Part shown: positions 13,901-16,900 of the stretch, one piece after another
Layout of the letters: each line of letters opens with the position of its first letter
How positions within the stretch are numbered: position 1 is the stretch's first letter
The notes under the pieces: model-generated
Databases searched by the model: none
What the model saw: the letters and a program-made list of their open reading frames with translations, nothing else
What the model was told of the DNA's origin: nothing
From: Callorhinchus milii
Taxonomy: Eukaryota
Direction of reading: 5' to 3'
DNA length: 64,000 nucleotides
Assembly (NCBI RefSeq): GCF_018977255.1
Contig: NW_024704742.1
Location: forward strand, 116,808,001-116,872,000
Program-made: the position numbers and the translations under genes

Positions 13901-16900
13901 TAAACACATCGGGTCACCATACCTGTTGAGCAAATCTATGGGTACCAACTGCAGAGAATGAATCGCCTAAAGGTACAGCAGCTGACCAATGAATTCTGGA
14001 CTTCTCCGTGTGCGACTAGAAATAAAAAACACGACATTATAATATTCACAACATGCTTGGTATATTTTACTGGCTTGAAGTCAACAGCGAAGTTATGTTA
14101 TTGAGGGAAAATCACTCAAACAGATATGTTAAGACATGTAAAGAAATACCTGTTCTTCAATTTTATCTTGTCTGTCAAGAGCAGCTTCAACAGCATCAAA
14201 GAATTCCTCCTCATTTATCAAACTATTTGGACCTTCCTATAAAATGAGAAACAAGAAACAAGATCAAGGTATGTAGTGATTTTCAAGGTATGTGGTAAGC
14301 ACACCATCACATGGTACGAAAAATGAACTCAAAAAAATATTTTTTTGTCTTAACTACCATAAGAAGGATATAGCAATGGTGGAATGAGTACAGCATAGGT
14401 TTGCTTTAGGCTGGATAGGTTTTGTCGCTAGAGAAGAGATGTATAAGAGGGATCCTAATAACATTTTATCAAAGGGTTCGATAAGGCTAGCATAAATAGG
14501 CTGTTCCCAATGGTTAGGGAGACTGTAACCAGGGATACAAGTATAAGATAGTGATAAGGGGATAGTGATAATGACGTGAAGACTGGTGAGTGCAGGTAGC
14601 CATGTAAAAGACAATGCAAACTATATTTCAGTAGTTTGCTTTGAACTTGGAAACGGGTCTGATGCTACTAAAAGTGTATACGTTTCTCTCCTCCATCTAA
14701 TAACGGAGTAGCACTCTCCAGTAACTCAATCAAATCATACTCAAGCCAGACTATATGACTGAAGATGTTAATTGCAGGCTTGTCCAATCCAGTCCTCACT
14801 CAAACCTGCACATTTCCAGGAGAGGTCATTAATTAGTAATGAAGAACATACATAAATATTCCCCTCCCACTGCCAAGAGGACAAGATTAATTATAGCACA
14901 CCTAATGCTACCTCCAGTTGAGATCAGAGAATTCAGTGTAAACAAAAAATTCAATCTTAGTTCTTTCAGGCACAAGCTTTTTAAAGAACTAAAACAGACT
15001 TGTTATATTTATAGACAAATACATCTAAATTCTCCATTGATTATATTGGCAACATATAGAGACTGGGAAGTGCAGTATAAATATTACATGCAAAAAATAT
15101 GGTATTTCAAAAATCAAATTGTTTACAAAATGGAAGCTAAGAGTACTACATAATTTTGCAATGTAATTGGATGAAGAATAATGCAAGTGAGGACAGCACT
15201 AGGTACTACTAATGGCACGTTGGGAAAGGAGCCAAACAAGAAGACAGTGCACTTTTCTCTAGATACTGAGTTCAGTTAATTTAAAAAGGGGACATTAATA
15301 AACTGATTACTGGAGAATTAAAATAGAAAGTGGATGTGATATAGGATAAGACGTAGAAATGAAAGACAAAGAAGATGGATACGATAGCCAAACATTATCC
15401 TTCCTGAATGATGCTGTGTCATTTTTAGATTAATAGCCTGGGCGTGTAAGCTATGTGCACTACAGTACAGAAGGGTTTTCAATGGCAATCTAGTATTATG
15501 AACATTGGAGCAACTTCAAATTTAATACTCAATTTGAAACAATGTAAATTCATATAGGCAAGATATAATAGTTGGAAGACTCCAATAAAACTTAGCAACA
15601 GGAAGTTCTTTTTTAAAAATATCATAGTTAACAAACATCCAGAAAAGTCGACTTCTCCAACATCCAAGAACTGCAGAAATAATCAGTAAACTTGCAGTGA
15701 TTACACAAATGAAAAAATCAACTGAACAGCAGAGGAGTACATGCCTGCAAAACTTGGACATTCATCTATTCTGTTTTCATGACTAAATAATCCTCATTAA
15801 CGCTCCAAGTGAGAAGTCTGCTAAACTCAAAAGTCTAAATATTCAAAAGTTCCTCAGTATTTTGACGATTTAAGACTGTGGCTAAACAAGTACAGTGAGG
15901 CCATTATAATGTGCTTTTTTAATTGTGCGAATTTGGTCATAATGCAGTTGCAGTATGGACCCCATTCACTGCGTAGGCAGCTAGTCTGTGCAATAATGTA
16001 GCTAAATAAGTTATTCTAACCATAGAAAATACAAGTGAAGCAATATTTGGAATATATACACTTCTTGGGTTCAACTCTTCTGAAAGGTACAAATGGACTG
16101 GAGACGTTCAGAGGTAATTATGGTAATTATTAAATCTGTGTCAATTAACACACTGAAAAAGCTGCATAAATATATGACCAAATACACCACACAATACAAT
16201 GGCTCCTGTGTTTCCGAAGCCTTTTTAAAGGAGTGATGTAGGCATGGATAGATATTTTGGAGTTTTTGCCGAATTAACTTTTGGAATCATGGATTTAGGC
16301 AGACGACTTCACACGCAGAATCTCTGAAAATGCAAATTCGATAAAGTGGGAAAGGGCAGTGGTGGAGATCAAAGTTAAATGGCCTTTTCCTATTCTTTTT
16401 CATCTTGAATGCATATTTCTTCCAGACCCTGCAATACCAGCTTTTTCATCCTTTTTAGAGATTGCTTTCAAAGTATTATATGGAGGAAACGATGATGGAA
16501 ACGTTTCCATCATCTTTCCTCCCAAATAATACTTTGAAAGCAAGCTCTAAAAAGGATGAAAAAGCTGGTATTTCAGAGACTGGAAGAAATTGTAAGTTTA
16601 TGAACTTACCTCATAATCGGGTCCTCCAAAGTGACATTTTTTCTTAAGTTCTGACATTGCATTCTTGTATGCATCTTCTATCCTTCGTTTCTTTTCAATC
16701 TCCTGTGAGAGATCAAAATAAATCTAAGTTTCCAAGTAATTCTGTGTGGTTGCAATAGGCTGGTTCTTGTATTTTTGTACTAAGCACGTGATTAATAACT
16801 GCAGCCTCAGATCAAAGTCACAACGCTCATCACTAAGTTTTATTTTAGGAAATGGCTATTTAAAAAAAAATCTCCAATTCACTTGATGCTTTCAAAATAA

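What the first reader, a model, noticed from the sequence alone, without database searches (positions are those of the whole stretch)
16415..16590. 176-bp spacerless palindrome starting 19 nt after the CERT1 exon-8 donor
Seen: two 88-bp arms, about 92% identical, with no loop and a perfect 24-bp centre. No other copy is visible in the window and no TSD is obvious. In the pre-mRNA it would fold into an ~85-bp dsRNA right beside the 5' splice site. Inference: it could be an ADAR substrate, a Drosha/Dicer hairpin (novel miRNA or endo-siRNA), a modulator of U1 access or exon 8-9 splicing just before the FFAT exon, or a foldback MITE remnant. Spacerless palindromes this long are usually unstable, so its persistence is notable.
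Basis: partly seen in the sequence, partly recalled or inferred. Interest (0 to 1): 0.7.

Follow-up and report, generated by a model that had tools for sequence, protein, structure and literature searches.

The report
Copy-error hairpin edited in CERT1 intron
In an intron of the elephant shark's ceramide-transport gene an 87-base stretch sits beside its own backwards copy, which two related species lack; it likely arose from one DNA-copying slip, the RNA hairpin it makes is likely edited by ADAR enzymes, and nothing seen so far shows that it changes the gene's splicing.

Summary
The palindrome is real: 16415-16590, arms 92% alike, no spacer, at +20 to +195 of CERT1 intron 8 on the minus strand. 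No other copy was found in four genome searches. Two related species carry the orthologous intron with only the donor-side arm and continuous flanks. So the element is an 87-bp inverted duplication of ordinary intron DNA, with no target-site duplication and almost no flank loss. That is the footprint of short-range template switching, not of a MITE or Penelope stub. One RNA-like run differs from the genome at 5 places in 1,231 covered intronic bases. All 5 are A>G on the transcribed strand and all lie inside the hairpin (P about 4e-5; 2e-3 if the three adjacent sites count once). A second sample of the same study shares one site. This likely reflects ADAR editing, but no same-individual DNA was available. 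Exon 8 joins exon 9 at the normal donor. The hairpin lacks Drosha geometry and matches no intronic miRNA of the 2014 catalogue by intron size. Verdict: a likely neutral, lineage-restricted, probably edited hairpin of a known kind, with a clear before-and-after.

The parts
16610..16702 (-). CERT1 coding exon 8 (93 nt)
   Evidence: tblastn of P0002 and P0005; spliced to exons 7 and 9 in run X4
16604..16609 (-). Consensus 5' splice donor GTAAGT of intron 8 (intron = 16609-14237, 2,373 nt)
   Evidence: sequence; X4 loose end at 16609 reads into exon 9
16592..16609 (-). Separate 7-bp hairpin over the donor (-4.2 kcal/mol), independent of the palindrome; X16 and X17 differ at 16593 and 16605, which breaks two of its pairs
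   Evidence: similar short hairpins at the exon 4 and exon 6 donors
16503..16589 (-). Original arm (5' arm of the RNA hairpin): ordinary intron sequence, present once in organisms B and C
   Evidence: X17 aligns from 16505 and X16 from 16524; X17 differs at 9 of 54 positions in 16536-16589
16416..16502 (-). Second arm (3' arm of the RNA hairpin): 87-nt reverse-complement copy of 16503-16589, absent in organisms B and C; ends uncertain by 1-2 nt
   Evidence: joints 16383-to-16505 (30 letters between) and 16383-to-16524 (49 letters between) in single contigs
16491..16514 (.). Perfect 24-bp palindromic centre (axis between 16502 and 16503), predicted 4-nt RNA loop
16548..16548 (-). Likely A-to-I site, intron +62, UAG context
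   Evidence: T>C on + strand in X4; context
16454..16456 (-). Three adjacent likely A-to-I sites, intron +154 to +156; 16455 also changed in X6
16435..16435 (-). Likely A-to-I site, intron +175, UAU context

Best explanation
An 87-base piece of CERT1 intron 8 sits beside its own reverse-complement copy, which two related species lack; it likely arose in one template-switch slip during DNA replication, and the resulting 86-bp pre-mRNA hairpin is likely edited by ADAR as a by-product, probably without a selected function. Steps: (1) Shown: one arm and both flanks are ordinary intron sequence shared with relatives, and the second arm is an extra with no target-site duplication and almost no flank loss. 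(2) Inferred: the polymerase copied the arm, folded back or jumped to the opposite strand, copied 87 nt backwards, and resumed where it had left. (3) Shown: the arms have since diverged by 5 substitutions and 2 gaps, with changes on both arms. Inferred: this lowers DNA hairpin or cruciform instability and lets the repeat persist. (4) Predicted: transcription gives an 86-bp stem 20 nt after the donor. (5) Shown in contigs: A>G changes confined to that stem. Inferred: ADAR deaminates it before the intron is removed and degraded. (6) Seen: exon 8 joins exon 9 at the normal donor. Inferred: little effect on CERT1 protein.
For: Origin: one 3,096-nt contig of organism C (X17) aligns up to 16383, has 30 letters, and resumes at 16505. 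By eye, 22 of those 30 letters match window 16387-16415 plus 16503-16504 in register, so the junction fits removal of exactly 16416-16502. Organism B (X16) has 49 letters between 16383 and 16524, which is 30 + 19, the same junction. No other copy was found: DNA searches with the whole palindrome and with one arm returned only this locus. A 27-nt pattern with up to 3 mismatches matched only the two arms. A 22-nt pattern gave 2 extra matches against 1 in the control, and they did not extend past 24 nt. The original arm is not conserved above its intron: X17 differs at 9 of 54 positions there, against 15 of 121 and 30 of 245 in flanking intron pieces. An 87-nt switch lies within the published range (median 12, maximum 128; PMC7954356 passages). 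Editing: X4 shows only T>C changes, 5 over 15900-17500, and all 5 lie in the palindrome. There are 54 candidate adenosines inside and 345 in the other covered intron, so P = 3.8e-5, or 2.4e-3 with the three adjacent sites counted as one. The opposite arm has the pairing U at every site, so conversion between arms cannot supply the G. X6 has G only at 16455 while covering 16435, 16454 and 16456, a site-wise pattern that one shared haplotype would not give. X4 holds spliced mRNA: a joint skipping intron 7 with CT..AC ends and an exon 9 loose end at 16609. X3 has the genomic letter at all 5 sites, and X5 at 3 of the 3 sites where it has listed depth. The genome has 5 loci with the adenosine-deaminase domain PF02137, not typed further. 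Elephant shark brain is reported to have 200,171 hyper-edited sites (PMC5625713 table passage).
Against: B and C share most of their differences from the window, so they probably count as one outgroup and the direction (gain here or loss there) is not formally fixed. With 3 right-arm, 1 left-arm and 6 shared differences, a duplication as old as the split is not rejected (P = 0.077). The editing evidence comes from contigs of two samples of one study whose RNA label is a guess, with no DNA of the same individuals. The X6 contig has depth 3.4, below the tool's warning level of 5. X5 has one unlisted other letter somewhere in 16370-16457 and no listed depth at 16455-16456, so a genomic variant there is not excluded. 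The avoidance of a 5' G (5 of 5 sites) is not significant (P = 0.075). Contigs drop rare forms, so a modest splicing effect or small-RNA output would not be seen. The genome search says that no match does not prove rarity. Four of the 5 arm substitutions are transversions, which I cannot explain.
Confidence: 0.68

Rival explanations
1. The young hairpin has been co-opted as a regulator: it recruits ADAR like the Gabra-3 editing inducer, or stacks on the 7-bp donor hairpin to tune U1 access and exon 8-9 splicing.
For: It starts 20 nt after the donor, and the donor's first 7 bases are predicted paired (0.80-0.98). The window's donor has the consensus +5 G where X16 and X17 have A, which could be a compensating change. 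Long intronic stems can induce editing nearby (PMC3479170 abstract).
Against: The donor hairpin forms equally with one arm only (0.83-0.98), and the exon 4 and exon 6 donors fold similar hairpins. X4's exon 8 contig has 0 other letters, and no alternative joint near the hairpin is listed. The second arm is absent in both relatives. The spread of mismatches fits chance (P = 0.49 for a perfect run of 28 or more).
Confidence: 0.1
2. The palindrome predates the split from organisms B and C, and their ancestor lost one arm precisely.
For: The substitution counts do not reject an age equal to the split (P = 0.077; estimate 0.5 of the way back, interval 0.13 to 1). B and C are probably not independent outgroups.
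Against: It needs a deletion ending exactly at the axis and exactly at the outer end, while a template switch gives this junction in one step (inference). Six positions where both arms agree against X17 fit a later duplication more simply.
Confidence: 0.1
3. The five T>C differences are genomic variants of the sampled animals or sequencing artefacts, and the hairpin is not edited.
For: No matched DNA; one study; the RNA label is guessed; one unlocated difference in X5.
Against: One change type of twelve, in the direction expected for the transcribed strand; all 5 inside 176 of 1,231 intronic bases; different site patterns in X4 and X6; genomic letters in X3.
Confidence: 0.08
4. The hairpin is cut by Drosha or Dicer into a species-specific miRNA or endo-siRNAs.
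For: Template switching is a known source of intronic miRNA hairpins (PMC10710096), and the stem is long and nearly perfect.
Against: It has an 86-bp stem and 4-nt loop, against the preferred 35 bp and 10 nt or more, and it lies outside that paper's 30-55-base stem criterion. No Rfam family reaches its gathering score (best 52.9 against 83). None of the 187 intronic miRNA rows of the 2014 catalogue has an intron near 2,373 nt with the miRNA within 200 nt of an end (read by eye).
Confidence: 0.07
5. It is a foldback MITE or a Penelope-type fold-back stub, like most long palindromes of this genome.
For: Such elements are the usual source here: all 9 other close inverted repeats with arms of 60 nt or more in a 664-kb sample have other copies in the sample.
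Against: It has no other copy in that sample or in four genome searches and no target-site duplication. An insertion would leave an empty site without either arm, but the relatives keep one arm. Rfam lists no hammerhead here.
Confidence: 0.02

Closest known systems
Short-range template-switch mutations that create inverted repeats (four-point model; Walker et al. 2021, PMC7954356, passages read; Monttinen et al. 2023, PMC10710096, parts 1-2 of 6 and passages read)
   Same: A reverse-complement copy of adjacent unique sequence appears at once, in an intron, with relatives showing the single-arm state; the length is within the published range (maximum 128).
   Different: At 87 nt it is far above the median of 12; it has no loop; the stem is too long for the miRNA-like class (30-55 bases); the apparent outcome is editing, not a miRNA; the published cases I read are from primates and mice.
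Self-folding palindromic ADAR substrates such as Xenopus Harbinger repeats (Porath et al. 2017, PMC5625713, passages read)
   Same: A palindrome of about 200 nt folds on itself with a short loop and is edited without a neighbouring inverted repeat.
   Different: Harbinger is a dispersed transposon family; this element has no other copy found and derives from local intron DNA.
Gabra-3 intronic editing-inducer stem (Daniel et al. 2012, PMC3479170, abstract and section list only)
   Same: A long intronic duplex shortly downstream of a coding exon, itself edited at several sites.
   Different: The Gabra-3 stem is evolutionarily conserved and drives recoding of an exonic site; this one is absent in two relatives and no exonic change is seen in contigs.
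Penelope fold-back stubs and palindromic MITE relics noted elsewhere in this genome (earlier scan notes; not checked)
   Same: Intronic, nearly spacerless palindromes of 160-290 nt.
   Different: Those are described as members of very abundant repeat families with an external origin; this one has no other copy found and is built from the host intron.

Membership tests
Short-range template-switch inverted duplication | Extra segment is the reverse complement of adjacent sequence | tested here: met
   16416-16502 against 16503-16589, 92% with gaps
Short-range template-switch inverted duplication | Orthologous site in relatives has the template but not the copy, with continuous flanks | tested here: met
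   X16 and X17, single contigs across the junction
Short-range template-switch inverted duplication | No external donor and no target-site duplication | tested here: met
Short-range template-switch inverted duplication | Direction fixed by independent outgroups | tested here: inconclusive
   B and C share most differences; P = 0.077 for an age equal to the split
ADAR-edited long dsRNA | Long intramolecular duplex on the transcribed strand | tested here: met
   predicted fold -121.1 kcal/mol; prediction only
ADAR-edited long dsRNA | RNA-DNA differences are A>G on the transcript and cluster in the duplex | tested here: met
   5 of 5 in X4 and 1 of 1 in X6; P = 3.8e-5 or 2.4e-3
ADAR-edited long dsRNA | ADAR neighbour preference (5' G avoided; recalled) | tested here: inconclusive
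   5 of 5 sites have a 5' U or A, P = 0.075
ADAR-edited long dsRNA | Genomic letter in DNA of the same individual, and partial levels in raw reads | not testable with these tools
   only contigs were served, of other samples
Canonical miRNA hairpin | About 35-bp stem with an apical loop of 10 nt or more | tested here: not met
   86-bp stem, 4-nt loop; criterion from PMC10710096
Canonical miRNA hairpin | Mature and star read stacks with uniform ends | not testable with these tools
   no raw small-RNA reads served; indirect catalogue check negative
MITE or foldback DNA transposon | Dispersed copies | tested here: not met
MITE or foldback DNA transposon | Empty site in relatives lacks the whole element; target-site duplication present | tested here: not met
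   relatives keep one arm; no duplication at the junction
Penelope fold-back stub with minimal hammerhead | Arms are ends of an abundant retroelement | tested here: not met
   no other copy found; arm is orthologous intron
Penelope fold-back stub with minimal hammerhead | Hammerhead core in each arm | tested here: inconclusive
   no Rfam hammerhead at E up to 10; minimal forms may be missed
Editing-inducer element (Gabra-3 type) | Evolutionarily conserved intronic duplex | tested here: not met
   second arm absent in organisms B and C
Editing-inducer element (Gabra-3 type) | Induced editing of a nearby exonic site | tested here: inconclusive
   0 other letters in X4's exon 8 contig; low-level editing would not show in contigs

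The most novel reading that the evidence does not exclude
A single replication template switch created from nothing a transposon-free, heavily edited ADAR substrate 20 nt from a splice donor, and it has since been kept as a lineage-specific ADAR-recruiting element that tunes splicing or editing at the CERT1 exon 8-9 boundary; template switching would then be an unrecognised birth route for regulatory editing substrates, as it is for miRNAs.
Probability: 0.1. Interest if true: 0.65.

Novelty: new member of a known kind. Interest (0 to 1): 0.33.

Why it matters
It is a clean before-and-after case: relatives show the single-arm state, and the species with the copy shows the editing signature on the new stem. 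Template switching is known to make miRNA-like hairpins, and palindromic transposons are known ADAR substrates. My listing-level searches showed no title or abstract start that joins the two, which is weak evidence of absence. The case makes a simple question testable: how many editing clusters outside repeats sit on template-switch duplications? For CERT1 itself there is no sign of consequence, so the biological weight is modest.

Tried and rejected
Rfam gave only shape-driven matches to unrelated miRNA families below their gathering scores (11 matches at E up to 10). No run is on record as RNA among the holders ('no RNA holder listed'), and no raw reads were served, so small RNAs, editing levels and retention could not be measured. 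Contig depth was not used to judge intron retention, because it is one figure per contig. The X3, X5 and X6 contigs stop inside the palindrome (16497/16531, 16457/16533, 16479); this is missing cover, not evidence against the element. L008 and L009 (2-mismatch pattern hits) did not extend and match the control rate. Mismatch clustering as a sign of selection or conversion: not supported (P = 0.49). Offset of edited sites from stem breaks: 4 of 5 have a break 23-29 nt downstream and 0 of 5 at 32-38 nt, but 23 of 51 and 20 of 51 paired adenosines qualify, so ADAR1 against ADAR2 cannot be told (offsets from the abstract of 10.1101/2023.01.16.524339). The donor-masking hairpin was rejected as special (three of the ten exon ends were misplaced by a few bases). 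Earlier scan notes held nothing by sequence or by my words. Searches for prior reports on this locus listed no paper about it: 3 papers for A-to-I with Callorhinchus and ADAR, 3 for COL4A3BP with A-to-I, 7 for shark editing terms; one search listed only papers without the gene name. The supplementary notes PDF of PMC3964593 was too large to read and may hold further miRNA detail.

Full report
Observation. The window holds two adjacent arms, 16415-16502 and 16503-16590, with no spacer. They match at 79 of 88 positions without gaps. With gaps they differ by 5 substitutions and 2 single-base gaps in 89 columns, and the central 24 bp are perfect. It is the longest of 18 close inverted repeats listed in the window; the next has 37-nt arms. 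The fold is far beyond chance: z = -16.8, 0 of 200 shuffles (+ strand). The transcribed strand folds at -121.1 kcal/mol into a stem of about 86 bp with a 4-nt loop.

Host gene. A 40-residue window translation found 6 proteins among 11 candidates. Four are named ceramide transfer protein or transporter of Callorhinchus milii, and one each is from a skate and a bamboo shark. tblastn of P0002 and P0005 maps CERT1 on the minus strand, with many exons 100% identical to P0002, so the window is very likely elephant shark. The eighth coding exon is 16702-16610 and the next exon starts at 14236, so intron 8 is 2,373 nt. The palindrome covers intron positions +20 to +195.

Copy number. DNA searches of the own genome with the whole palindrome and with one arm at E up to 10 returned only this locus. 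A 27-nt pattern with up to 3 mismatches matched only the two arms. A 22-nt pattern with up to 2 mismatches gave 2 further places against 1 in the reversed control, and neither extended past 24 nt. The tool warns that no match does not prove rarity. For a background I scanned 60 stretches of 10 kb plus the window, 664 kb in all. Twenty close inverted repeats had arms of 30 nt or more, and ten had arms of 60 nt or more. The nine others are 70-87% alike and all recur in the sample, eight of them at 11 or more places. This one is 92% alike and does not recur. The script counts alignments that run through the centre as spacerless, so some of the others have loops. Long palindromes are thus common here, but most are repeats, and this one is not.

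Reality. Runs X1 and X2 (two samples of one study) hold 1.00 of 49 sampled words. One X4 contig from another study spans the whole palindrome. An assembly artefact is very unlikely.

Origin. Two other organisms hold a small share of the words, so I laid one run of each. A single 3,096-nt contig of organism C (X17) aligns to the window up to 16383, carries 30 letters, and resumes at 16505. A contig of organism B (X16) has 49 letters between 16383 and 16524, which is 30 + 19 and so the same junction. By eye, 22 of the 30 letters match window 16387-16415 followed directly by 16503-16504, with four gap letters further left. The relatives therefore have the donor-side arm once and lack 16416-16502, an 87-nt reverse-complement copy of 16503-16589. 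No target-site duplication is seen and the flanks are continuous. A transposon insertion would leave a site without either arm. This is the pattern of a short-range template switch: the nascent strand folds back or jumps to the other strand, copies backwards, then resumes (PMC10710096, parts 1-2 of 6 read). Such events reach 128 nt in apes, with a median of 12 (PMC7954356, passages). The mechanism is inferred from the junction, not shown.

Age and constraint. In 16536-16589 X17 differs from the original arm at 9 of 54 positions. At 3 of these X17 agrees with the second arm, at 6 both arms differ from X17, and at 1 further site only the second arm differs. Five more X17 differences near the piece ends were not listed. 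These counts put the duplication about halfway back to the split, with an interval from 0.13 to 1, and an age equal to the split is not rejected (P = 0.077). B and C share most differences, so loss in their ancestor remains a formal rival. The arm is no more conserved than flanking intron (15 of 121 and 30 of 245 differences), and the mismatch spacing fits chance (P = 0.49). A review states that instability rises with arm length, arm identity and a short spacer (PMC7999016, passages). With 8% divergence and breaks 13-23 nt from the axis, persistence needs no selection; this is inference.

Editing. X4 is labelled RNA only by guess, but it holds a joint that skips intron 7 with CT..AC ends and a loose end at 16609 that reads into exon 9, so it contains spliced CERT1 mRNA. 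Over 15900-17500 its listed differences are five T>C changes and nothing else. All five lie in the palindrome: 16435, 16454, 16455, 16456 and 16548. On the transcribed strand these are A>G. X4 covers 1,231 intronic bases, with 54 candidate adenosines inside the palindrome and 345 outside. The chance that all five fall inside is 3.8e-5, or 2.4e-3 if the adjacent three count once. Each faces a U on the other arm, so conversion between arms cannot explain them. Contexts are UAG, UAA, AAA, AAA and UAU, none with a 5' G (P = 0.075). X6, another sample of the same study, has the change only at 16455 although it covers 16435, 16454 and 16456; its depth is 3.4. X3 has the genomic letter at all five sites, and X5 at the three where it has listed depth. 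X5 also has one unlocated difference in 16370-16457. The genome carries the adenosine-deaminase domain at five loci, not typed further. Extensive hyper-editing is reported for elephant shark brain, and self-folding palindromes are described as strong ADAR targets (PMC5625713, passages). I put editing at about 0.85-0.9; same-animal DNA and raw reads are missing.

Splicing and small RNAs. The donor GTAAGT is predicted to pair with bases +12 to +18 in a 7-bp hairpin of -4.2 kcal/mol. It forms equally when only one arm is folded with it, and the exon 4 and exon 6 donors form similar hairpins. X16 and X17 differ at 16593 and 16605, which breaks two pairs and gives them +5 A; the direction of these changes is unknown. 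X4 shows the normal exon 8-9 junction, no alternative joint near the hairpin, and no change in exon 8, but contigs hide rare forms. The stem and loop do not fit the preferred miRNA geometry or the 30-55-base criterion for template-switch miRNA candidates. Rfam gives only sub-threshold shape matches. In the 2014 catalogue of elephant shark miRNAs I read all 187 intronic rows by eye (PMC3964593, supplement parts 10-12). None has an intron near 2,373 nt with the miRNA within 200 nt of an end; the four nearest lengths (2,321-2,393) have it 250 nt or more from an end. This check is indirect, since it depends on that assembly and annotation.

Verdict. The best reading is a lineage-restricted template-switch duplication whose RNA hairpin is likely edited as a by-product, with no shown function (0.68). 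Rivals are co-option as a splicing or editing regulator (0.10), ancestral presence with loss in relatives (0.10), genomic variants mimicking editing (0.08), a small-RNA source (0.07) and a transposon relic (0.02); these are not mutually exclusive. Both halves of the story are known kinds. What is worth noting is the clean before-and-after and the link from a template switch to a transposon-free editing substrate, which my listing-level searches did not show in print. Interest 0.33.

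Noticed in passing
window 21304-21269 (minus strand): A 36-nt segment bounded by AG and GT in CERT1 intron 4 encodes 11 of 12 residues of an insert in the skate protein P0005 and is absent from P0002: a likely conserved cassette micro-exon.
   Followed up: partly
window 12433-12350 approx. (minus strand): A serine-rich exon matched by P0005 and skipped in P0002, likely the alternative exon of the long CERT isoform (label recalled).
   Followed up: no
window 16592-16609: The donor is consensus and fully paired in a 7-bp hairpin here, while both relatives have +5 A and a broken hairpin; two differences on opposite sides both favour pairing in this species. 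Direction unknown.
   Followed up: partly
window 15929-15972: A 44-nt piece of intron 8 on which many unrelated contigs of organisms A, B and C pile up: a short dispersed repeat fragment.
   Followed up: no
L052:8892-8971 and L020:7572-7632: Shorter high-identity palindromes (arms 40 nt at 92.5% and 30 nt at 95%) with no other copy in the 664-kb sample; possible further template-switch hairpins.
   Followed up: no
window 31180-31286 and 60601-60725: Two smaller inverted repeats with loops (33-nt arms at 88%; 27-nt arms at 89%).
   Followed up: no
window 16415-16590: Four of the five substitutions between the arms are transversions, and the three outermost all changed on the original arm; unexplained, small numbers.
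   Followed up: partly
window 53100-56100: Long low-complexity tandem tracts on both sides of CERT1 exon 1 give many spurious open frames.
   Followed up: no
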